Shown here piece after piece: positions 136 to 20,492 of a stretch of DNA of 32,000 nt; positions within the stretch are counted from its first letter, which is position 1, and the number at the start of each line of letters is the position of its first letter. Origin of the DNA: Candidatus Zhuqueibacterota bacterium (GTDB lineage Bacteria > Zhuqueibacterota > Zhuqueibacteria > Zhuqueibacterales > Geothermadaptataceae); NCBI GenBank assembly GCA_030950365.1, contig JAUZRQ010000027.1, positions 85,293-117,292 on the forward strand, read 5' to 3'. Position numbers and translations under genes: made by a program. The notes below the pieces were generated by a model. That model saw nothing but the letters and a program-made list of their open reading frames with translations, was not told the DNA's origin and did no database searches.

Positions 136-2325
136 TTACCTGTTGGCCGCCGGCAAAAACTGCCGCAGTGCGTGCATCAGCACCGGCAGGCGGCCGTAGC
201 GCGGGGCGGCGTCGGAGGTGAAATAGCGTTCCGGGTGGCGCAGATACTGATGCAAGCGGGCGATCTGCCTCGGCGAAAGATGAAACAGCGCCAGCAGCAG
301 CCGGTCGTCCTGCAGTTCATGCACGAAGCTTTGCAACATCTGCAACTCATCCGGCTGAATCGGAAAGCGTGGTTCGTCTTGTGGAAATGGTAATTGCAAC
401 TGGCCTGGGGGAAGGGGAGGCTCAAGTTTTGTCACCTGTGCTGTTGATCGCTTTTCTTGGTCAAGGTGGCGCAGAACCTGGGTCAGGGTCGCGCGGCTGG
501 TAGCGAACAAGAACAGGGTCTCCAATAGTTCAAAATCCGGCGTAGCCGTTTTGAGGTTGAGCTGCGCCGCTGCCGGCGGCAAAAAGGCCAGCCGCCGCCG
601 CTGGCCGGGCACCGGCTCGATGCGCACGCCGCGGCCGATGGCCTGCAACAAAAATTTGCGCGCATCGGCTCCCACGCCAATGTTGATGAACGTGATCACA
701 TTCGGGCGGTTGGAGTCCCAGCCCTCGTAAAAGCTACGCGAGCCCATCAGCAGCCGGATGTCCGATTGGCGGGTGTTGAGCTGGTCGAAAAATGCCTCGC
801 CATCCATCACCGTGCTGATTTCGTAACCGGCCAGCTCGTGCTGCAGCCACCCGGAAATATCGCCAATGCGAATGAGCGCAAACGGCCGTGGGGCGGTCTT
901 GAGTTTGAGCGCAATCTCCTGCCGGTTTGATGGCCGCACCAGTGCTTCGATGCTCCCCGGGCTCTCGGCCTGAAACACGCGCGACAGCACATCCCTAAAC
1001 GCGATGGCCGACAGCGTTTGCACATCAATGTTCGGCCGGCCCCGCTCAAAAACCAGCTCCGCGCCGGAGTGCCCATCGCGCAGGAGCTGCTCGCGCGCCT
1101 CCTGCCACAACCGCTCCGAAACCTCGCCGCGGGCGATGCGCGCCAGCGTCTCGAAAAACACTTTCAAATCCGCCTGCTCGACATTGACCGAATTCACCAG
1201 CACCAGCATGAGCGGGTTGTGATACACCGGCTGCGAGGCCGCGCTTTGCAGCCGCTCGTGCGCCTGTTGGAGATGCGCCAGCAGCATGAGCGAGGCCAAC
1301 ACGATTTTTTGCTTTTCGTCGCCGGTAAAATCTGCTGCAACTGGGATAGTCGATTTCTTCGGCGAGCGGAATGGCGCAAATTCCGATTGCATCACGGCGA
1401 TGTGTTTGCCATAGCCGGCCTCGATGAAACGCGCCAGGTTGAAATCGAACGCGGTGGTGAGCAGGTCGCGGGGATCCGTGAACGTGGCGGAGAAATTGAA
1501 CAGAAAACCATTGCGCGCCAGAATGCTGTAAATGTGTTGCCGCTTCGAATCTTCGCGATCCCCCTTGTGCGCTTCATCCAGCAGCACGAACCAGCGGCCA
1601 CCGTTGTCGTAATTGCGAAAATCCACGATTTTCTCCTTTTGCGCATCGCCCAGATTGTCCGAGCGGTACACGAACACGGTCAGCCCGGAACCGGTTGCCG
1701 GTTCCGGAAATTCACGCTTGTGTGCCGGGTGGTCGCGTAGATCGACCAACCGCAGGTGCAGTTCGGGATGACTGGCGTTGAATTCATCCACATGCGCACG
1801 GATTTGCTGCAGCAGGTCATCTCGGCAGGTGAGCACCAGCACATCGTGGGGTGGCACCTCGCCGCGTCGCATCAGCCGCCACAGCATTTCCAGCAGCTTG
1901 ACCAGCACCAGGGTTTTGCCGCTGCCGGTGGCCATCCAGAAATTCATACGGTTGATCACCTGCTGGAAGGCCAGACGCTGGCCGTCCACCGGGAAATATT
2001 CCTGCAGCAGCCGGTGGACATCCCGTCGCATTTTGGTGAGGTCGAAGTTTAGACGCGCCGTTGCAGCTTCGCCGTACCAGTCGAGCAGCGCCTGCTTGCG
2101 GTGTGCATTGGCCGCGTCGGCTTCGCCGGGCCGGTAATTCAGCGCGTGCTGGTAATAAAACCACAGCAGCTTCAATGCCTGTTGCAGCGCTGCCTGCTGA
2201 TAATCCCACAGCGATTTCTGCCGTGAAAACCATGACCACTCCTGCGCCGTCCACGCCGGCGGCAGCGTGGTGAGATCGATGGTATCCAGCAGCGTCTGCA
2301 GTGGCCGTGGGTTCAGTCCTGACAT
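136..2325 (-). CDS. SF2 DEAH-box helicase/ATPase, Type III restriction Res-subunit-like, without a recognisable nuclease domain
   Basis: 729-aa ORF. Walker A 'MATGSGKTLV', motif II 'LLDEAHKG', motif III 'FSAT', motif VI 'QAIGRGVRI'. Its ATG (2325-2323) overlaps the stop of the upstream ORF by 13 nt. Confidence 0.8.
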   Translation of the reverse strand: MSGLNPRPLQTLLDTIDLTTLPPAWTAQEWSWFSRQKSLWDYQQAALQQALKLLWFYYQHALNYRPGEADAANAHRKQALLDWYGEAATARLNFDLTKMRRDVHRLLQEYFPVDGQRLAFQQVINRMNFWMATGSGKTLVLVKLLEMLWRLMRRGEVPPHDVLVLTCRDDLLQQIRAHVDEFNASHPELHLRLVDLRDHPAHKREFPEPATGSGLTVFVYRSDNLGDAQKEKIVDFRNYDNGGRWFVLLDEAHKGDREDSKRQHIYSILARNGFLFNFSATFTDPRDLLTTAFDFNLARFIEAGYGKHIAVMQSEFAPFRSPKKSTIPVAADFTGDEKQKIVLASLMLLAHLQQAHERLQSAASQPVYHNPLMLVLVNSVNVEQADLKVFFETLARIARGEVSERLWQEAREQLLRDGHSGAELVFERGRPNIDVQTLSAIAFRDVLSRVFQAESPGSIEALVRPSNRQEIALKLKTAPRPFALIRIGDISGWLQHELAGYEISTVMDGEAFFDQLNTRQSDIRLLMGSRSFYEGWDSNRPNVITFINIGVGADARKFLLQAIGRGVRIEPVPGQRRRLAFLPPAAAQLNLKTATPDFELLETLFLFATSRATLTQVLRHLDQEKRSTAQVTKLEPPLPPGQLQLPFPQDEPRFPIQPDELQMLQSFVHELQDDRLLLALFHLSPRQIARLHQYLRHPERYFTSDAAPRYGRLPVLMHALRQFLPAANR

Positions 2326-2873
2326 TTGCCCCTCAGTTTGGATTTTTGCCGGTCGAGCAATTCGTGTAGCCAGTTCGAATGATACTGCCGCGCCAGATTT
2401 AAGCTGGTCTCCGTGTCGAGATTCAGAAACGTGGTCAGGTCCTCGGGCGAAATGGCCTGCCCATTGAGGTAGATAGCCTCGGCGTTTGCCGGATCGGTGC
2501 CGTTGATGAATTCCAACAAGTAGGCGCCGAGGTAGCGGTAGGTGGCGCCGGTGGCCGGATTTTGCACAAATTCGTTCTCTCCATTTAGCCGCGAGGCCGC
2601 GCGCAGCAGCTCATCCAGCATGGCGAAAATCACCGTAGAGGCCGGCCGCAGATGCAGCCGCGGGGCCTTGCGGTGCGTTTTGACTTCCAGCAAAAGGAAC
2701 CAGCCGGTGCAGTAATTCACGAACACGAAATCGATGTCCTGCGTGATGAGTCCGCGGATGGAATCTTTGAGATTGTGGCGCACCCACTGCGAAAAATCCA
2801 GGTTGCGCTCACCGGTGTATTCCGGCCGGGTCATGGTCACCTCCACCAGATCAGCGGCTGAATGTGCGGCCAC
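2313..2873 (-). CDS. Small hypothetical protein with a PD-(D/E)xK nuclease-like motif
   Basis: 186-aa ORF wedged between the methyltransferase and the helicase, overlapping both. An alternative ATG at 2834 lies 2 nt after the methyltransferase stop. Motif 'QDIDFVFVNYCTGWFLLLEVK' (D46/D48...E63-V-K65) fits D-x(14-16)-ExK. I recognise no other family. Confidence 0.6.
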   Translation of the reverse strand: MAAHSAADLVEVTMTRPEYTGERNLDFSQWVRHNLKDSIRGLITQDIDFVFVNYCTGWFLLLEVKTHRKAPRLHLRPASTVIFAMLDELLRAASRLNGENEFVQNPATGATYRYLGAYLLEFINGTDPANAEAIYLNGQAISPEDLTTFLNLDTETSLNLARQYHSNWLHELLDRQKSKLRGKCQD

Positions 2874-5428
2874 GGCGGCTGCCGCAGATCGATGCGCTCG
2901 CCGTCGCTGAATTCGACCTGCGGGCCTGCCAGGCGGCGAATGGATTTACCCAGCAGACAGGACAGGGTCTCGGCCAGGTCGATGTCCGGGTACAGACGGT
3001 CGAAATGGGGCCGTACGGTATCGGTTTCGGGATCGAGCTCCACGGCATACAACAGTTTCGGGTCGGCAGTGAACAGCGAGGCTTCACCATCGAGGGCCGT
3101 GATAGCATTGGGCGCCTGTTCGCGGTAGCGTACGCGCCGCAGGATGTCCTCGTACTGCTCGAGCTCGAAATATTTGAAAAAGCCACCGCCGCGCCAGCCG
3201 ACCTGTTTGGAAATGCCGGAACGCTCGCCGGCGAGCACCTTTTTCATGCGCGGCAGCACCACACTGTCGAAATGCGCGCCCATTTCAATGCCGATCCATT
3301 TACGGCCCAGTTTGTGCGCCGCGGCGGTGGTGGTGCCGGAGCCGAGAAAGAAATCCAGCACGAGCTGCCCCGGCTCACTGGTGGCTTCGATCACCCGCGC
3401 CAGCAAAATTTCCGAATTTTGGGTGCGAAATCCCGCAGTGCTTTCGTAGGAAGGGATGTCCTTCCAGTTGTCGGTGATTTTCATGCGCTCGGCCGGCAGG
3501 TACTCCACCTTCCATTCGTCCGCGCCACAGTTCCGGCAGGTGTCGATGCGCGTCACGCCGAATACGGTTTTCTCCGGCGTGATGTCCAGAAATTTGAACC
3601 GGTCTCGGCGCTGCTGCTGAATGGTTGCGATGAACTCCGGACCGCGTTCGGCATCGTCCCAGTAGTAAAGGGCGCCGCAGGCGCGGCATTTCAGGCGCAG
3701 AAAATGCTCGCGCAACAGTTGGTCCACTTTTTTCTGCTGCAGCGAAAAGTGCTGGCCCGGCGGCGGATATAGGGTTTTACCAAAGAATACCCGCTCAGGC
3801 GGATTGCGCTCTTCCTGTTTCAAAAAGCCGGTCCAGCGGAAATCGCCGAGACTGCGCGGACGGTCGAGGGTTTTGTAATACGGCCGGTCGGCGGCGGCGT
3901 ACCAGAAAAGAAACTCGCTCTCCACTTCGAATTTGGTCGGCGTGCCGATGCTCTGCCGCTTGCGGTTGATGAGGATTTCGTTACAGTAGCGGTCTTCGCC
4001 GAAAAGCTGGTTCAGCAGCAAGCGCACGTACATGTTGCCGTTGTAATCGCAGCGCACAAACAGGCTGCCGGCCTCGTGCAGCAGCTCGCGCGCCAGGCTG
4101 AGCCGGTTTTCCAATAGGGTCAGCCAGGTGGCGTCTTTGTATTTGACTGAGTACAGAAAATCGGCATTGGAGCCCAGGTTGAATGGCGGGTCGATGTAAA
4201 TGGTCTGCACGCGGCGGCGGAATTTGGGCAGCATCGTGTTGAGCGCCTGATAATTTTCGCTTTTGATGAGCCAGCCATCGAGGACGCTATCGAGGTCGTC
4301 GAACAGTGCCACCAGCTCAGGCTCGAGGTCGGGAAAATGACGCGTGTCCAGCGGCAGGTGCCGATATCGTGCAGACAGCGCCTCCGCTGAGGACAGGGGC
4401 ACGGCGAGCTGATTTTTGTTAATCCGCGCTTGATGGGCGATAATTTGAAATTGCGCTGAAACCAGTCCGAGCTCTCTCCATTCCGCCAGTTGCGCTTGCA
4501 TGCCGGGATGCGTGAGCATGCGGTTGAGCAAATCCACGCTGCGTTCGGCGAGGCGGTCGAGGGTGATGACGTAGTGGCTGTTACGTACGAAACGCGGTTT
4601 GTTCCAGATGTTCACCAGCTCGTCCTCGAATGGCGCAATTCCGTCGATGATGCGGTTTGCGATGGATTTCAGCGCCTGCAGTTGCTGGACGCGGCGGGCG
4701 TCCCAGGTGGCCTCGTGGGTGAACATGTACTGGTACAGCCACAGATCGAGCTGCTCGCGTAGAAACGCGCGCGCATTTTTGTTGATGAAGAAATCCACTT
4801 CGGATTGGCGTTCGAAAAGCCGGAAGGCGCGCTCGAGGGTGCTCTCCTGCACGGGAATGTCCGACTCGTGCAGGGTTTTCAGGATGTCGCGCAGTGCCGG
4901 TTTGCGCCCGCGCTCGGCATACCGGACTTCGAAAATTAAGGCGCCGTCGTCGCGGCGTTCGTGAAAGCGATAAATCAGCGCGCGTTTTTCATTGGCTTTT
5001 TTGTACTGCAATTGCGAGGCGTCGAAATAGAACGTGTGGTCATCCACCGTGACCGACATGCTTTGAAAAAGCTGGTCGGTTTTGATGTAGTACAGCATGT
5101 GGGTTTTCCAGAACAGCAGCACGTCGCGCTGGTCTGTGTACACGCGCTCGTACACCTGCTGATGCAGGGGCGTGCGGTGGAAATAGATGGAGCCGCTCTC
5201 GCTGAAATAGCGCTGGAAGAACGCATGCAATTTATCGAACAGCTCTTCCCGGAATTCCGGGAAGAGCTGTAGCACGGCATCGATGGCCTGCTGCAATTGC
5301 GGCTGCATGCGCTCGCGGAAATACTGCGATTTGATGCGCATGAGATTGATGTAGCCGGACTGGCCGTCCACCGGCGCACCGACAAACAAGTTTTGCAGGG
5401 CTTCCCAGAATTGCTGCTCTTTGGGCAC
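2837..5428 (-). CDS. Large beta-class (N6-adenine/N4-cytosine) DNA methyltransferase, Type III Mod-like, with long N-terminal extension and a zinc ribbon in the target-recognition region
   Basis: 863-aa ORF with GTG start preceded by GAGGAG. Motif IV 'IYIDPPFN' (aa 411-418) lies upstream of motif I 'LDFFLGSGTT' (aa 691-700), which is the beta-class order. Two CxxC pairs (C581/C584, C631/C634) sit between them. About 400 aa N-terminal are of unknown function. Confidence 0.85.
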   Translation of the reverse strand: MPKEQQFWEALQNLFVGAPVDGQSGYINLMRIKSQYFRERMQPQLQQAIDAVLQLFPEFREELFDKLHAFFQRYFSESGSIYFHRTPLHQQVYERVYTDQRDVLLFWKTHMLYYIKTDQLFQSMSVTVDDHTFYFDASQLQYKKANEKRALIYRFHERRDDGALIFEVRYAERGRKPALRDILKTLHESDIPVQESTLERAFRLFERQSEVDFFINKNARAFLREQLDLWLYQYMFTHEATWDARRVQQLQALKSIANRIIDGIAPFEDELVNIWNKPRFVRNSHYVITLDRLAERSVDLLNRMLTHPGMQAQLAEWRELGLVSAQFQIIAHQARINKNQLAVPLSSAEALSARYRHLPLDTRHFPDLEPELVALFDDLDSVLDGWLIKSENYQALNTMLPKFRRRVQTIYIDPPFNLGSNADFLYSVKYKDATWLTLLENRLSLARELLHEAGSLFVRCDYNGNMYVRLLLNQLFGEDRYCNEILINRKRQSIGTPTKFEVESEFLFWYAAADRPYYKTLDRPRSLGDFRWTGFLKQEERNPPERVFFGKTLYPPPGQHFSLQQKKVDQLLREHFLRLKCRACGALYYWDDAERGPEFIATIQQQRRDRFKFLDITPEKTVFGVTRIDTCRNCGADEWKVEYLPAERMKITDNWKDIPSYESTAGFRTQNSEILLARVIEATSEPGQLVLDFFLGSGTTTAAAHKLGRKWIGIEMGAHFDSVVLPRMKKVLAGERSGISKQVGWRGGGFFKYFELEQYEDILRRVRYREQAPNAITALDGEASLFTADPKLLYAVELDPETDTVRPHFDRLYPDIDLAETLSCLLGKSIRRLAGPQVEFSDGERIDLRQPPWPHIQPLIWWR

Positions 5429-5526: not shown

Positions 5527-5602
5527 TGTAGCACACGCTTCCAGCTTGTGTCGGCAGTGATGCGGCCTGCGGCCGCAACGCAAGCAAGGATGCTTGCGCC
5601 AC
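5527..5602. repeat. Modular GC-rich hairpin repeat, copy 1 (module A 5527-5550, module B 5561-5602)
   Basis: Module B is 41/42 identical and module A 22/24 identical to the reverse complement of 20451-20492 and 20427-20450. Each module folds into short perfect or near-perfect hairpins. Confidence 0.85.
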
Positions 5603-5716
5603 TTTGATTGGCGGCGCGACTTCTTTCCAAAAAACCTTGCATTTGCATGGCTTATTCTTTAATTTTTTTAAACAAAAAATACCTGAATCTGAGCCAAACC
5701 TATCTGCGAACCTTTT

Positions 5717-7618
5717 ATGGCGTCGAAAATCGGGGAATTTCTCAAAAAACATCGCGAATCAATACAGTCCTTATGGATCAATAAGGTAAAGGATGAAGCC
5801 ACCATTACGACCGTTTTCCCCGGACCAGTGTTGAAAGCATTGATCGGCGAGTTGTTACAGCGGATCATTACCCACTTTGAGTTCCCAGATAGGCAGCAAA
5901 ACTGGATTCAGTTATTCACCGACCGCATGACTGTCGTTTCGGCTGCTTCCATTTACGTCTCTGATCGGGTTGCCAAGGTCGGTAAAAATGTTATTTTGCA
6001 CATGCTGATACAGGAAAGCAATCCCATTGAAGATCAACTGAACGCATTTCTGGAATTGGACCGGGTTTTTGATGAAATCGATTTAGCGCAACTGGCACAG
6101 TTCTTGAACCTACCGCCACGATTTCCTCAATCGCCTGAAGCCGAACAGGCAAAAATCAGCGAGCAATTGCGCTCGCGTCTGAATCTGTTTTACAATGCCT
6201 TCCAGCACAGCACCGATGGCATCATCATTACCGATCTTGGCGGTCGCATCCTTGAAGCCAACGAAGCGTTTTTGAAAATTTTTGGCTATGAATATAATGA
6301 AGTCATCGGCCAACACACTGGGTTTTTGCGCGCGCCCCAAACATCGGATGAATTTTACCGTAAGATGTGGGAATCCATCAATACCAAAGGCGAGTGGAAA
6401 GGCGAAATCATCAACAAATGCAAAGACGGCAGCTTGATTCCGGTGTGGCTTTCTATTACGCCGATTTACGAAGACGGCCAGCGGATTGGGTACATGGGCG
6501 TTGAAATCGATATATCTGAAAAAAAACGTATTGAGAATGCGCTGATCAAAGAAAAACGGTTCACCGAATCGTTGATAGAAACGGCCAACAGTTTGATCGT
6601 AGGGCTCAACCTCAAAGGTGAAATCACCCTGTTCAACAAAAAGCTGGAAGCCACCACGGGCTATAAAAAAGAAGAAGTGTTGGGGAAAAAATGGTTCGAA
6701 ATTTTCCTGCCCGAGCGCATCCGGCCCTCGGTGGAAGAGGTGTTCGACGGTATCGTCAACAACAAAATCCCCTCATACTACGAAAACCCAATTTTAACGC
6801 GGAGCGGAGAAGAGCGCTATATTGCCTGGAGCAATACGGCCATCCGCAACGAGAACAACGAAATCATCGGTGCGTTGGGCATCGGTCAGGACATCACCGA
6901 GCAGAAGCGACTGGAACAACAAATTTTGCATTCCGAACGGCTGGCTACCATCGGCCAGATGGCGGCCAAAGTGGCGCACGAGATCCGCAATCCGCTGTCC
7001 TCCATTATGCTCAACGCCGAACTCTTAGGCGATGAAATCCGTATGGCCGGCGATGCCATTTCCGAGGATGCCGAAGTACTGCTGAAGTCCATTATTTCCG
7101 AAGTGGATCGGGTTGCCAAACTAACCGAAGATTATTTGCAGTTTTCCCGCCTGCCGGATGCCGACCCGCAGCCAGGCGATCTAATCAATCTGATCCAGGA
7201 AGTTGTGGAGTTCATCGAACCGGAGGCCAGCTCCAGAGGCATCCAGATTGTGAGCGAATATGAGACGAACGCGCTGGAACTGGTATTTGATGCGCAGCAG
7301 ATGCGACAGGTGCTGATGAATATTTTGAAAAATGCCCTGGAGGCCATGCGCCGCGGCGGCATTTTGACCGTGCGCGTGCAGGACTCGCGCAAAAAAGTGC
7401 TCATCGCCATATCCGACACCGGCGATGGTATTCCAGAAAAGCTGCAGGACAAAATCTTTCAGCCCTTTTACACGACCAAGGATATGGGCACAGGACTTGG
7501 CCTGGCGATTTCACAGCAGGTGATCCAGGAACACGGCGGCAATATTGAGTTCGAGAGTGAGCCGGGCAAGGGCACCACATTTTACCTGCATTTGCCCAAA
7601 AAACGGTTCAAGAAATAA
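5717..7618 (+). CDS. Sensor histidine kinase with tandem PAS domains
   Basis: 633 aa. PAS-like segments ('FYNAFQHSTDGIIITD', 'ETANSLIVGLNLKGEITLFN'), H-box 'VAHEIRNPL', ATP-binding G-boxes 'DTGDGIP' and 'GTGLGLAISQ'. Confidence 0.9.
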   Translation: MASKIGEFLKKHRESIQSLWINKVKDEATITTVFPGPVLKALIGELLQRIITHFEFPDRQQNWIQLFTDRMTVVSAASIYVSDRVAKVGKNVILHMLIQESNPIEDQLNAFLELDRVFDEIDLAQLAQFLNLPPRFPQSPEAEQAKISEQLRSRLNLFYNAFQHSTDGIIITDLGGRILEANEAFLKIFGYEYNEVIGQHTGFLRAPQTSDEFYRKMWESINTKGEWKGEIINKCKDGSLIPVWLSITPIYEDGQRIGYMGVEIDISEKKRIENALIKEKRFTESLIETANSLIVGLNLKGEITLFNKKLEATTGYKKEEVLGKKWFEIFLPERIRPSVEEVFDGIVNNKIPSYYENPILTRSGEERYIAWSNTAIRNENNEIIGALGIGQDITEQKRLEQQILHSERLATIGQMAAKVAHEIRNPLSSIMLNAELLGDEIRMAGDAISEDAEVLLKSIISEVDRVAKLTEDYLQFSRLPDADPQPGDLINLIQEVVEFIEPEASSRGIQIVSEYETNALELVFDAQQMRQVLMNILKNALEAMRRGGILTVRVQDSRKKVLIAISDTGDGIPEKLQDKIFQPFYTTKDMGTGLGLAISQQVIQEHGGNIEFESEPGKGTTFYLHLPKKRFKK

Positions 7619-7650
7619 CTGGTGGACAGTCAAACGTACGGAGTTTAAAC

Positions 7651-9045
7651 GTGAACGCAAACAATCAACCGAGAGTTCCGCTGCTGGTGGTTGACGACGA
7701 GCAGAGCGTCCGGGATTCGCTGGAGCGCGTGCTGGAAAAGGAGGGCTTCCAGGTGCATACTGCAGACAGCGGTCGGCGCGCGAAAGAGATCCTGCAGAGA
7801 GAACCCATTGCGTTGGTGCTAACCGATCTGCGCATGCCAGAAGTCAGCGGCCTGGATTTACTCCGGCAGGTCAAAAAACAGTATCCCGACACGGAAGTGA
7901 TTTTGATCACCGGGCACGGCACCATCGAAAAGGCGGTAGAGGCGATGAAAGAGGGCGCTTATGATTTTATTACGAAACCCTTCAAGCGCGCGGAGATTCT
8001 GCGGGCGGTGAACAAAGCGCTGGAAAAACAATCCCTGGCGCGCGAAAACCGCATTTTGAAAGAGCAATTGAAGAGCAGTTTTGAAAATAAAATTCAGTTT
8101 ATTGGCAAAAGCAAGCAGGCGCACGACATCATGCAGCTTGTGGACCGCGTGGCACCACTGCCTTCCACCGTGCTCATCACTGGTGAAAGCGGTACCGGCA
8201 AGGAGATCATCGCCCGCTTGATTCACATGAAAAGCCCACGCGCCAACAAACGCTTCGTGGCCGTCAATTGTGGCGCCATCTCCGAGAATTTGATTGAAAG
8301 CGAGCTGTTCGGTCATGTAAAAGGCGCGTTTACCGGCGCCATTCGCGATAAAGAAGGGTTGTTCAAGATTGCTTCGGGCGGCACCCTATTCTTGGATGAA
8401 ATTAGCACAATTCCCATCAACCTGCAGGTGAAATTGCTGCGGGCGTTGGAAGAACATGAAATCATGCCCGTGGGGTCCACCAAAACCATCCCGGTGGATG
8501 TGCGCATCATTGCCGCCAGCAATCGGGACCTCATGAAAGAAGTGGAGGAAGGTCGGTTCCGCGAAGACCTGTTTTACCGTTTGAACGTGATTGGCATCAA
8601 TATTCCGCCGCTGCGCGAACGTCGGGAGGATATTCCATTGCTGGTGGATTTCTTTATTAAAAAATTCAATCGCGAGCTAAACAAAAACGTGAGCGGTGTC
8701 AGTCATCAGGTCATGCAAATGTTTTTGACCTATCAGTGGAAAGGCAACGTGCGCGAGCTCGAAAACGCCATCGAGCGGGCAATGATTCTGTGTGACGGCG
8801 ATCAGATCATGCCGGAGCACATGCCGCAGAACTTCTCCACAACAGAGGTTCAGCCCGTGGTGAAGAGCGGCCTGAAAGAGGCCGTTATGGCCTTTGAAAA
8901 ATCTCAAATTCTGAAAACCCTCGAAATTGTCAATGGCGATAAGAAAGCGGCGGCCAAACTGCTGGGATTGAGCATATCTTCGCTATATCGGAAGATGAGC
9001 GAACTCGGCCTGGACGTGAAAGAGACGATCGGAAAGAATTCTTAA
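7651..9045 (+). CDS. Sigma54-dependent response regulator (NtrC family: REC + AAA+ + Fis-type HTH)
   Basis: 464 aa. Receiver 'LVLTDLRMP', Walker A 'GESGTGKE', 'GAFTGA' sigma54-contact motif, C-terminal HTH 'AAAKLLGLSISSLYRKM'. Sits immediately downstream of the kinase. Confidence 0.92.
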   Translation: MNANNQPRVPLLVVDDEQSVRDSLERVLEKEGFQVHTADSGRRAKEILQREPIALVLTDLRMPEVSGLDLLRQVKKQYPDTEVILITGHGTIEKAVEAMKEGAYDFITKPFKRAEILRAVNKALEKQSLARENRILKEQLKSSFENKIQFIGKSKQAHDIMQLVDRVAPLPSTVLITGESGTGKEIIARLIHMKSPRANKRFVAVNCGAISENLIESELFGHVKGAFTGAIRDKEGLFKIASGGTLFLDEISTIPINLQVKLLRALEEHEIMPVGSTKTIPVDVRIIAASNRDLMKEVEEGRFREDLFYRLNVIGINIPPLRERREDIPLLVDFFIKKFNRELNKNVSGVSHQVMQMFLTYQWKGNVRELENAIERAMILCDGDQIMPEHMPQNFSTTEVQPVVKSGLKEAVMAFEKSQILKTLEIVNGDKKAAAKLLGLSISSLYRKMSELGLDVKETIGKNS

Positions 9046-20426: not shown

Positions 20427-20492
20427 CACAAGCTTGAAGCTTGTGCTACAGTGGCGCAAGCATCCATGCTTGCGTTGCGGCCGCAGGCCGCA
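20427..20492. repeat. Modular GC-rich hairpin repeat, copy 2 (module A 20427-20450, module B 20451-20492)
   Basis: Matches the reverse complement of copy 1 modules (22/24 and 41/42). Hairpins: cacaagc/gcttgtg, cgcaagcat/atgcttgcg, tgcggcc/ggccgca. Confidence 0.85.

What the first reader, a model, noticed from the sequence alone, without database searches (positions are those of the whole stretch)
136..5428. Split Type III-like R-M or defence operon: giant methyltransferase, then a 186-aa PD-(D/E)xK-like protein, then a nuclease-less Res-type helicase
Three minus-strand genes are translationally coupled. The methyltransferase stop (2837-2839) lies 2 nt before the ATG at 2834, or inside the longer ORF starting at 2873. 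The small ORF's stop overlaps the helicase ATG by 13 nt. Canonical Type III systems have two genes, and the Res subunit carries its PD-(D/E)xK endonuclease at the C-terminus of a protein typically well over 800 aa. Here the Res-like protein is 729 aa and ends about 150 aa after motif VI, and I can find no D...(D/E)xK motif in it. The inserted small ORF carries 'DIDFVFVN...LLLEVK'. The methyltransferase is also atypical (see the separate finding). The arrangement looks like a Type III derivative whose nuclease has become a separate subunit, or a distinct methyltransferase/nuclease/helicase defence module. By eye the operon is more GC-rich than the adjacent two-component region. It abuts a repeat element at 5527-5602. 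Both observations are compatible with horizontal acquisition. The downstream boundary is unknown because the window starts only 135 nt beyond the helicase stop.
Basis: partly seen in the sequence, partly recalled or inferred. Interest (0 to 1): 0.75.

Follow-up and report, generated by a model that had tools for sequence, protein, structure and literature searches.

The report
Type III restriction system with detached nuclease
This is a three-gene variant of a common two-gene Type III restriction-modification system: the motor protein has lost its built-in DNA-cutting domain, and a small uncharacterised nuclease-like protein of phage origin is encoded between the methyltransferase and the motor, most likely doing the cutting instead.

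Summary
Three translationally coupled minus-strand genes encode Mod (863 aa), a small protein (173 aa from ATG 2834) and a Res-type SF2 helicase (729 aa).

Mod and Res belong to a widespread two-gene Type III family (Mod ~860 aa, Res ~990 aa). In that family Res ends in a ~270-aa PD..DxK nuclease domain (PF27151). The window Res stops exactly at the domain boundary, and no remnant lies downstream. Its ATPase motifs are intact, and all three genes are under purifying selection (dN/dS 0.11-0.21).

The small protein belongs to an unannotated, largely phage-borne family with a near-universal D35/E50/K52 triad. Its confident model (pLDDT 94) resembles only PD-(D/E)xK nucleases. It is not the detached Res domain, so this is replacement, not fission.

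Nuclease-less Res forms arose at least 4-5 times. Five of five such lineages with a Mod have a gene at the mod-res junction, and three are from this family, against 0 of 49 nuclease-bearing loci (p = 4e-4).

Caveats:
- The junction is a general cargo hot spot.
- The small family also accompanies nuclease-proficient Res, or Mod alone.
- The horizontal-acquisition cues do not hold up.

Verdict: a new variant of a known kind, and a trans-acting nuclease is the most likely reading (~0.5).

The parts
2837..5428 (-). mod: 863-aa beta-class N6/N4 DNA methyltransferase (Type III Mod), with motif IV DPPF at residue 413 and motif I FLGSGT at residue 694
   Evidence: Pfam N6_N4_Mtase E = 1.4e-34. PADLOC MTase_III PDLC03638 at 876 bits over positions 4-801 of 816. 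Motifs found. dN/dS 0.11-0.12 against KSB1 relatives.
2313..2834 (-). 173-aa PD-(D/E)xK-like protein of an unannotated family. Putative catalytic codons: D35 (2732-2730), E50 (2687-2685), K52 (2681-2679). A subfamily-specific C-terminal helical extension covers residues ~140-173.
   Evidence: No Pfam, NCBIfam, PHROG or PADLOC hit. 295 representative relatives. D35/E50/K52/G103 invariant in 58 sequences, and DEK present in 242 of 248 single-domain members. AF2 model pLDDT 93.7. Foldseek hits only to PD-(D/E)xK nucleases: BFVD E = 7.6e-4 and PDB best E = 0.01. dN/dS 0.17-0.18.
2840..2844 (-). Shine-Dalgarno GGAGG, 5 nt upstream of ATG 2834. It overlaps the last sense codon and the stop codon of mod, giving translational coupling.
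   Evidence: Sequence read directly.
2313..2325 (-). 13-nt overlap between the small-ORF 3' end/stop and the res start (ATGTCAGGACTGA). The sequence GAGGGG lies at 2334-2329 upstream.
   Evidence: Sequence read directly. The same overlap is annotated in L001 and L009-L012.
136..2325 (-). res: 729-aa SF2 helicase/ATPase of Type III Res type, lacking the C-terminal PD..DxK endonuclease domain. Walker A ATGSGKT is at residue 132, DEAH at 250 and motif VI QAIGRGVR at 561.
   Evidence: Pfam ResIII E = 4e-12. PADLOC REase_III PDLC03654 matches only the central part. Aligns to residues 1-713 of the 984-aa P0029. No C-terminal-domain HMM or tblastn hit. dN/dS 0.17-0.21.

Best explanation
The locus is a three-subunit derivative of a common two-gene Type III restriction-modification family.

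Shown:
- Mod is a complete beta-class amino-methyltransferase.
- Res keeps the full SF2 ATPase motor but has cleanly lost its ~270-aa C-terminal PD..DxK nuclease domain.
- A translationally coupled 173-aa protein with an invariant D/E/K triad and a PD-(D/E)xK-like predicted fold is encoded between them.
- All three genes are under purifying selection.
- The combination 'nuclease-less Res + member of this small-protein family at the mod-res junction' arose in two or three independent lineages. It was never seen with nuclease-bearing Res of the same family.

Inferred:
- The small protein, probably a homodimer, is the endonuclease of the complex and acts in trans.
- A Mod dimer recognises and methylates the asymmetric site.
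- On unmodified sites the Res motor hydrolyses ATP to switch the complex into long-range sliding, as in EcoP15I.
- DNA cleavage on collision is carried out by the small nuclease docked to the complex. Docking is most plausibly on Mod, because the family rides directly behind beta-class methyltransferase genes in phages and in several unrelated Type III systems. It could use the C-terminal helical extension that only the Type III-linked subfamily has.

Evolutionary order inferred: a phage-derived methyltransferase-associated nuclease first joined intact Type III operons (the state seen in L005 and L022). That made the Res nuclease redundant, and the Res nuclease was then lost (window/KSB1, L024, L021).
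For: 1. Res truncation at the domain boundary, with no remnant downstream.
2. Intact ATPase and Mod motifs, and dN/dS of 0.11-0.21 for all three genes.
3. Tight coupling (SD within the mod 3' end, 13-nt overlap with res), conserved in relatives.
4. Small protein: invariant D35/E50/K52; DEK in 242 of 248 members; model pLDDT 93.7; all structural neighbours are PD-(D/E)xK nucleases.
5. The only hhalign segment against the lost Res domain superimposes the two catalytic motifs.
6. Recurrence: L024 (Mod 834 - 148 aa - Res 748, hhalign E = 5.5e-6) and L021 (Mod 876 - tandem 261 aa - Res 615).
7. Survey of 80 loci: 0 of 49 long-form loci carry the family against 3 of 5 short-form lineages (Fisher p = 4e-4, or 4e-3 if conservative). 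5 of 5 short forms against 17 of 49 long forms have any junction insert (p = 0.008).
8. Short forms are polyphyletic in the helicase tree.
9. Precedent for motor and nuclease on separate polypeptides: CglI/NgoAVII (PMC5861437, PMC4267654).
Against: - No biochemical evidence of nuclease activity or complex formation.
- Fold matches to solved structures are sub-threshold (best PDB E = 0.01, TM 0.30).
- The same family co-occurs with Res proteins that keep an intact PD..ExK motif (L005; L022 with RE_endonuc). It also occurs with Mod but no adjacent Res (L013/L014). So it is not only a replacement nuclease.
- The mod-res junction is a general cargo hot spot (TA pairs, DUF559, GIY-YIG, SMODS).
- Other nuclease-less Res forms carry unrelated junction genes (L026/L049, L046) or stand alone without Mod (L042/L043).
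- In two thermophile Type III systems Res is needed for methylation (PMC8259958). That could explain retention of a nuclease-less Res without any restriction.
- Window residue 66 is S where 246 of 288 aligned family domains (members plus the window protein) have Q.
Confidence: 0.5

Rival explanations
1. Restriction-dead methylation module plus unrelated cargo. The Res nuclease was simply lost, and Mod plus the Res motor are kept because Res is needed for Mod's methyltransferase activity, giving an epigenetic or orphan-like methylase. The small gene is an independent, phage-derived selfish or defence nuclease (for example homing-type or Abi-type) that happened to land in the mod-res junction hot spot.
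For: - The junction carries unrelated cargo in 17 of 49 long-form loci.
- The small family is mainly phage-borne and also sits near terminase, HNH or NinG genes.
- It occurs with nuclease-proficient Res (L005, L022) and with Mod alone (L013/L014).
- Nuclease-less Res also exists with other cargo or as an orphan.
- DthLIII and FnoB1III need Res for methylation, and their plasmid sizes imply gene sizes like those of this family (PMC8259958).
Against: - There are two or three independent co-occurrences of this family with nuclease loss, and none with 49 nuclease-bearing loci (p = 4e-4).
- All five short-form lineages with Mod have a junction gene.
- The small gene is tightly coupled translationally to both neighbours.
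- Purifying selection acts on the small gene in step with its neighbours.
- The Type III-linked subfamily has its own conserved C-terminal extension across different Mod/Res partners.
Confidence: 0.3
2. Guarded-effector model. The Mod-Res(motor) chassis acts as a sensor and the junction gene is a swappable effector, by analogy with PrrC embedded in the EcoprrI Type I locus. The small nuclease is held inactive by the complex and is released or activated when phage interferes with it, causing abortive infection rather than classical restriction.
For: - Short-form lineages carry three different kinds of junction gene: this nuclease family, an unrelated 205-aa ORF, and SMODS plus a 2TM protein.
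- Precedent: PrrC is encoded within a Type IC locus and is activated on inhibition of EcoPrrI (PMC12707154).
- The small family also accompanies nuclease-proficient Res.
Against: - No sensor or regulatory domain is evident in the 173-aa protein.
- No PADLOC model of a known Abi system matches.
- This model does not explain why the Res nuclease would be lost specifically when this family is present.
Confidence: 0.12
3. The small protein is a non-catalytic adaptor or regulator that uses a nuclease-like fold only to bind DNA or Mod (for example a controller of mod/res expression or an assembly factor).
For: - No family annotation exists.
- Window residue 66 is S where most members have Q.
- Tandem forms tolerate loss of the triad in one copy.
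Against: - D35, E50 and K52 are near-universally conserved across 267 diverse members, which is the signature of a retained active site.
- No HTH or other regulatory domain is present.
- Tandem forms always keep one complete triad.
Confidence: 0.06

Closest known systems
Classical two-gene Type III R-M systems (EcoP1I/EcoP15I; here specifically the Mod ~860 aa / Res ~990 aa family represented by Desulfofundulus australicus and Thermus filiformis proteins, PADLOC MTase_III PDLC03638 / REase_III PDLC03654)
   Same: Orthologous Mod (full-length model match, DPPF and FLGSGT motifs) and orthologous Res motor (~50% identity over 720 residues, Walker A, DEAH, motif VI). The gene order is mod then res, with translational coupling.
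   Different: Res lacks the entire C-terminal PD..DxK endonuclease domain (PF27151 'YagJ'). A third gene encoding a separate PD-(D/E)xK-like protein lies between mod and res.
CglI / NgoAVII multisubunit ATP-dependent restriction enzymes (PMC5861437, PMC4267654)
   Same: ATP-dependent restriction in which the SF2 helicase-like motor and the nuclease are separate polypeptides, encoded with a methyltransferase in a three-gene unit.
Three-gene Type III systems with an extra helicase-like ATPase 5' of mod (BspHIV, Eco86II; Murray et al. 2021, PMC8259958)
   Same: Type III systems with a conserved third gene of unknown role, identified by guilt by association.
   Different: That third gene is an ATPase upstream of mod without a nuclease motif, and Res keeps its PD-(D/E)xK domain. 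Here the third gene is a small nuclease-like protein between mod and res, and Res has lost its nuclease.
VRR-NUC and other small phage PD-(D/E)xK nucleases (Pfam PF08774)
   Same: Size, phage distribution, and the D...ExK...Q motif order. One family member gives a sub-threshold VRR_NUC hit (17.1 bits). A VRR-NUC protein appears among the weak structural neighbours.
   Different: The window protein and nine of ten sampled members give no Pfam VRR_NUC hit at all. The family has its own conserved N-terminal 'MTRpE.tG.R.LdFS.W.R' element and a recurrent linkage to beta-class DNA methyltransferase genes.
PrrC embedded in the EcoprrI Type IC R-M locus (PMC12707154)
   Same: An accessory nuclease gene encoded inside an R-M operon.
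   Different: PrrC is a tRNA anticodon nuclease with an ATPase domain, sits in a Type I locus, and does not replace the restriction nuclease.

Membership tests
Type III restriction-modification system | Mod: beta-class N6/N4 amino-methyltransferase (motif IV DPPY/F upstream of motif I FxGxG) | tested here: met
   Pfam N6_N4_Mtase E = 1.4e-34. PADLOC MTase_III 876 bits, full length. DPPF at 413 and FLGSGT at 694.
Type III restriction-modification system | Res: SF2 helicase-like ATPase with Walker A, DEAH and motif VI | tested here: met
   Pfam ResIII E = 4.2e-12. ATGSGKT, DEAH and QAIGRGVR present.
Type III restriction-modification system | Res carries a PD-(D/E)xK endonuclease domain in its C-terminal part | tested here: not met
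   Res ends at the boundary where 984-1039-aa relatives continue with the PD..DxK domain. The C-terminal-domain HMM and tblastn find nothing in the window or in sister loci.
Type III restriction-modification system | Two-gene mod-res unit | tested here: not met
   Three coupled genes, conserved in L001 and L009-L012.
Type III restriction-modification system | ATP-dependent cleavage requiring two inversely oriented unmethylated sites; hemimethylation of one strand | not testable with these tools
   Needs a methylome and in vitro or in vivo restriction assays.
PD-(D/E)xK nuclease superfamily (small 173-aa protein) | Conserved catalytic D...(D/E)xK residues on adjacent beta-strands | tested here: met
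   D35, E50 and K52 are invariant in 58 sequences. DEK is present in 242 of 248 single-domain members. The model places D35 next to strand 36-40, and E50/K52 within strand 45-55.
PD-(D/E)xK nuclease superfamily (small 173-aa protein) | Restriction-endonuclease-like alpha/beta core fold matching solved members | tested here: inconclusive
   [not shown]
PD-(D/E)xK nuclease superfamily (small 173-aa protein) | Metal-dependent phosphodiester cleavage | not testable with these tools
   Needs biochemistry.
VRR-NUC (Pfam PF08774) | Match to the Pfam model above the gathering threshold (23.8 bits) | tested here: not met
   No hit for the window protein even at E <= 0.1. The best relative, P0144, scores 17.1 bits, E = 0.006.
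[not shown]
   The helicase hits ResIII/SWI2_SNF2/DEAD only, and is orthologous to Type III Res. The small protein has no DNA-recognition domain hit.
Other PADLOC defence systems (DISARM, BREX, Druantia and others) | Match of the components to system-specific models | tested here: not met
   Only R-M models match significantly. PbeA and MzaB hits are marginal (E = 0.002-0.05).

The most novel reading that the evidence does not exclude
The small-protein family is a general 'plug-in' nuclease for beta-class (N6/N4) DNA methyltransferases. It uses the methyltransferase as its DNA-targeting subunit. This would give minimal two-gene MTase + ~120-aa nuclease restriction units in phages and in Mod-only loci, and three-subunit Type III variants in bacteria once the Res nuclease becomes redundant. 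More broadly, the mod-res junction of this Type III family would act as an effector-swapping slot: nuclease-less Res lineages would rely on whichever effector is encoded there (this nuclease, an unrelated 205-aa protein, or a SMODS/2TM pair).
Probability: 0.2. Interest if true: 0.8.

Novelty: new variant of a known kind. Interest (0 to 1): 0.62.

Why it matters
Type III enzymes are the textbook case of a motor and a nuclease fused in one Res subunit, and current cleavage models rest on two Res nuclease domains converging. A natural, recurrent and selected variant, in which the motor has shed its nuclease and a separate small nuclease-like protein is encoded in the operon, has three consequences:

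1. It gives a genetically separable system for asking how ATP-triggered sliding is coupled to cleavage.
2. It defines a previously unannotated protein family (no Pfam, NCBIfam, PHROG or PADLOC model; several hundred clusters) that is tightly linked to beta-class DNA methyltransferases in phages and bacteria.
3. It shows that automated R-M/defence annotation, which would call this a plain Type III pair, misses both the missing nuclease and the third component.

The survey also shows that the mod-res junction of this family is an insertion hot spot for defence-type cargo. That parallels what is known for Type I loci.

Tried and rejected
- **Fission hypothesis (small ORF = detached Res nuclease domain).** Rejected. 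BLASTP finds nothing and the hhalign profile-profile comparison gives E = 0.21.
- **Pseudogene or frameshift explanation for the short Res.** Rejected. There is no remnant of the domain downstream, dN/dS is 0.17-0.21, the motifs are intact, and the same length is conserved in relatives whose Res is 71-90% identical.
- **Recent horizontal acquisition.** Not supported. Synteny with the two-component genes is conserved, GC is within the window's range, and the repeat is a dispersed 43-nt element.
- **Sequence searches of the small protein** against Pfam, NCBIfam, PHROGs, PADLOC and the PDB, both as a single sequence and as a 58-sequence profile, gave nothing significant.
- **The first structure model** (6-sequence alignment, pLDDT 69) was too weak. 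It was replaced by the 58-sequence model.
- **Failed locus searches.** The search for related loci failed with the broad alignments. The exact-sequence look-up of the window Res found no contig, so the DNA beyond the window's left edge was inferred from sister loci L001 and L009.
- **The unrelated 205-aa junction ORF of L026/L049** could not be assigned.
- **Link to the Res-dependent DthLIII/FnoB1III systems.** Whether this family is theirs could not be verified.
Full report
**1. What is there**

Window 136-5428 holds three minus-strand ORFs:
- mod, 2837-5428, 863 aa
- a small ORF, 2313-2873 from GTG or 2313-2834 from ATG
- a helicase gene, 136-2325, 729 aa

The mod stop (2839-2837) is followed by ATG 2834. 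A GGAGG sits at 2844-2840, inside the end of mod. The small ORF's last 13 nt overlap the helicase start, with GAGGGG upstream. Every relative of the small protein begins 'MTRPE...'. No convincing sigma-70-like promoter or terminator interrupts the three genes.

**2. Mod and Res belong to a known, common Type III family**

- Mod matches Pfam N6_N4_Mtase (E = 1.4e-34).
- Mod also matches PADLOC MTase_III model PDLC03638 end to end (876 bits).
- It carries DPPF and FLGSGT.
- Its size is normal for the family (805-953 aa in 50 loci), so it is not atypical.
- The helicase matches Pfam ResIII and the central part of a 1154-position PADLOC REase_III model.

Of its 120 best homologues, almost all are 975-1040 aa and carry an extra domain, PF27151 'YagJ'. 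The 984-aa Thermus filiformis protein aligns at 51% identity with window residues 12-720 and then continues for about 270 residues. That extension contains a textbook nuclease motif, 'KPDFIFWMQKGSTYAIVFVDPKG'. In Desulfofundulus the system is a plain two-gene pair, Mod 863 aa + Res 987 aa, 3 nt apart.

**3. The window Res has cleanly lost its nuclease but is not decaying**

Neither tblastn with the C-terminal domain nor an HMM built from 113 such domains finds anything in the window or in sister loci. In sister locus L009 a Na+/H+ antiporter gene starts about 330 nt after the Res stop. Walker A (ATGSGKT), DEAH and motif VI (QAIGRGVR) are intact.

dN/dS against two relatives (Res 90% and 71% identical):

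| Gene | dN/dS |
|---|---|
| mod | 0.11-0.12 |
| small gene | 0.17-0.18 |
| res | 0.17-0.21 |

. The trio lies in conserved synteny beside the same PAS-kinase/sigma-54 regulator genes in several candidate division KSB1 MAGs.

**4. The small protein**

It has no hit in Pfam, NCBIfam, PHROGs, PADLOC or the PDB by sequence. Only five close relatives exist in 5.8 billion clustered proteins. An exhaustive profile search finds 295 representative clusters. None has a Pfam domain or any name other than 'hypothetical protein'.

- In a 58-sequence alignment the only invariant residues are D35, E50, K52 and G103.
- Of 248 single-domain members, 242 have the D-E-K triad, usually followed by a conserved Q.
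- With this alignment AlphaFold2 gives a confident model (pLDDT 93.7, pTM 0.86; helix, two strands, long helix, strands, C-terminal helices).
- Foldseek neighbours are exclusively PD-(D/E)xK nucleases. In the PDB they are sub-threshold: La Crosse virus cap-snatching endonuclease E = 0.01, then Cas4-family ACE1 and RecB.
- In the viral library one unnamed 121-aa phage homologue scores E = 1.3e-8, and a phage 'PD-(D/E)XK nuclease superfamily protein' scores E = 7.6e-4, probability 0.98.
- One member gives a sub-threshold VRR_NUC hit.

I conclude that it is a PD-(D/E)xK-like protein with a retained active site. The fold match to solved structures remains formally inconclusive.

About 20 members are tandem duplications of 260-300 aa. 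Their N-terminal copy always keeps DEK, while the C-terminal copy is often degenerate. That is the pattern expected of a dimeric nuclease turned pseudo-dimer.

**5. Replacement, not fission**

The small protein is unrelated by sequence to the lost Res domain (BLASTP; hhalign E = 0.21). The single segment hhalign aligns does superimpose 'DiDf...llE.K...Q' on 'PDFIFW...VFVDPKG...YQ'. The catalytic layout is therefore the same, but the origin is different.

**6. Where the family lives**

| Context | Loci |
|---|---|
| Close relatives (50-55% identity) directly after other Type III Mods: a 643-aa Mod followed by an 888-aa Res with intact 'EPDFVLFL...LFIEPKG' | L005/L006 |
| Mods of 727 and 699 aa, the first followed by a beta-eliminating lyase gene, i.e. 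no Res | L013/L014, L016 |
| Tandem member upstream of a Mod + 1032-aa Res with an RE_endonuc domain | L022 |
| Phage contigs: 117-135-aa members overlapping the 3' end of N6_N4 methyltransferase genes | L035, L037, L039, L124/L125 |
| Phage contigs: members next to terminase, HNH, NinG or portal genes | other loci of L027-L041; L122 |

The family is therefore phage-borne and linked primarily to beta-class DNA methyltransferases, not to Res. The Type III-linked subfamily shares a conserved C-terminal helical extension of about 30 residues that the phage core lacks.

**7. Is the link to nuclease loss real?**

I fetched 80 metagenomic loci of the same Res family and classified them with HMMs.

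- Forty-nine nuclease-bearing Res genes had a Mod upstream. None had a small-family ORF.
- Nuclease-less Res genes with a Mod fall into five lineages:

| Lineage | Junction gene |
|---|---|
| KSB1 | small family |
| L024 (Anaerolineae, Res 748 aa) | 148-aa distant family member (hhalign E = 5.5e-6, DEK retained) |
| L021 (Aquificaceae, Res 615 aa) | tandem family member |
| L026/L049 | unrelated 205-aa ORF |
| L046 | SMODS + 2TM pair |

- In an NJ tree of the helicase cores these short forms are scattered among long forms: L024 is sister to L070, L026/L049 and L046 fall within another clade, and L042/L043 are sister to L007. The nuclease was therefore lost at least 4-5 times.
- Fisher's exact test gives p = 4e-4 for 'small family present' (3/5 against 0/49), or 4e-3 if KSB1 and L021 count as one event. 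It gives p = 0.008 for 'any junction insert' (5/5 against 17/49).

**8. Complications**

- Seventeen of the 49 nuclease-bearing loci also have inserts at the mod-res junction. These include nucleotidyltransferase + HEPN pairs, DUF559, GIY-YIG, HATPase_c_4 proteins and large ATPases. The junction is a general cargo hot spot.
- A 724-aa nuclease-less Res (23 member sequences) stands alone without Mod.
- Murray et al. (PMC8259958) showed that two thermophile Type III Mods methylate only when Res is co-expressed. Their plasmid sizes imply mod of about 2.6 kb and res of about 3.0 kb, like this family (my inference, membership unverified). If that holds here, a nuclease-less Res could be kept purely for methylation.

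**9. Mechanism proposed (confidence about 0.5)**

A Mod dimer recognises and methylates the site. The Res motor provides the ATP-dependent switch to sliding known from EcoP15I (PMC4678819, PMC11142916). The small, probably dimeric, PD-(D/E)xK protein supplies cleavage in trans, probably docked on Mod.

Shown: the gene content, the domain loss, the conservation, the selection and the recurrence. Inferred: nuclease activity, complex formation and the order of events (accessory nuclease first joins intact systems, as in L005 and L022, and the Res nuclease is then lost).

Rivals:
- a restriction-dead methylation module plus an unrelated cargo nuclease (about 0.3)
- a PrrC-like guarded effector (about 0.12; PMC12707154)
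- a non-catalytic adaptor (about 0.06)

**10. Comparison with what is known**

The system works like, and descends from, a Type III system. It fails two defining features: the Res-borne endonuclease and the two-gene unit.

- The nearest functional precedent for a separate motor and nuclease is CglI/NgoAVII (PMC5861437, PMC4267654). Those enzymes use a different motor and a site-recognising nuclease subunit.
- The three-gene Type III systems of Murray et al. add an ATPase 5' of mod, not a nuclease.
- I found no description of a nuclease-less Res paired with a separately encoded nuclease in the searchable literature. That library is incomplete, and REBASE could not be queried.

**11. Verdict**

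This is a new variant of a known kind, built on an unannotated protein family. Interest 0.62.

Noticed in passing
L048, L050, L055, L072, L078, L080, L085, L087, L096, L100, L103, L109, L111, L113, L116 (gap between Mod stop and Res start): The mod-res junction of this Type III family is an insertion hot spot: 17 of 49 nuclease-bearing loci have more than 250 nt inserted there. The cargo includes NTP_transf_2 + HEPN pairs, DUF559, GIY-YIG, HATPase_c_4/AlbA-like proteins and large PHP/AAA ATPases.
   Followed up: partly
window 5561-5603 and 20450-20492: A 43-nt GC-rich element with internal hairpin potential occurs twice in the window in inverted orientation (98% complementary). It looks like a dispersed REP-like intergenic repeat rather than a mobile-element boundary.
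   Followed up: partly
L002-L004, L042, L043 (P0013, 724 aa): A nuclease-less Res-type helicase stands alone with no Mod and no small ORF, right after a diacylglycerol-kinase-like gene in a housekeeping neighbourhood. It is represented by 23 member sequences. Its role as an orphan motor is unexplained.
   Followed up: no
L026:5387-6004 and L049:2582-3307: An unrelated 205-aa ORF fills the mod-res slot beside another nuclease-less Res (743/744 aa). It has no Pfam, PADLOC or PDB hit. It contains 'GPDPGYDLIVK...LTVSVKSS', which could be a PD...SxK variant motif. Its fold was not determined.
   Followed up: partly
L046:3459-4912: A SMODS-type nucleotidyltransferase plus a ~200-aa protein that looks like a transmembrane protein sit between Mod and a 762-aa Res that retains only a partial C-terminal domain. 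This may be a CBASS-like pair embedded in a Type III operon.
   Followed up: no
L035:802-2369, L037:2825-4413, L039:4433-6522, L124:3953-5354: On phage-like contigs, 117-135-aa members of the small-protein family overlap the 3' end of N6_N4 DNA methyltransferase genes (one of them a ParB-MTase fusion). These may be minimal methyltransferase + nuclease pairs.
   Followed up: partly
P0128-P0154 (260-305 aa proteins); L021:2799-3584; L022:2125-2907: Tandem-duplicated members of the small-protein family always keep the D-E-K triad in the N-terminal copy, but often lose it in the C-terminal copy. This suggests pseudo-dimers with a single active site.
   Followed up: partly
L120:930-7951: A copy of the same Mod/Res pair is broken into many ORF fragments (six Mod pieces, three Res pieces). 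It is either a decayed system or a poor assembly. It is a useful contrast to the intact, selected window trio.
   Followed up: no
window 5717-9045 (+ strand): Immediately upstream, and divergently transcribed, lies a PAS histidine kinase (633 aa) and a sigma-54-dependent response regulator (464 aa). The same neighbours flank the trio in all KSB1 relatives. No functional link to the R-M genes was examined.
   Followed up: no
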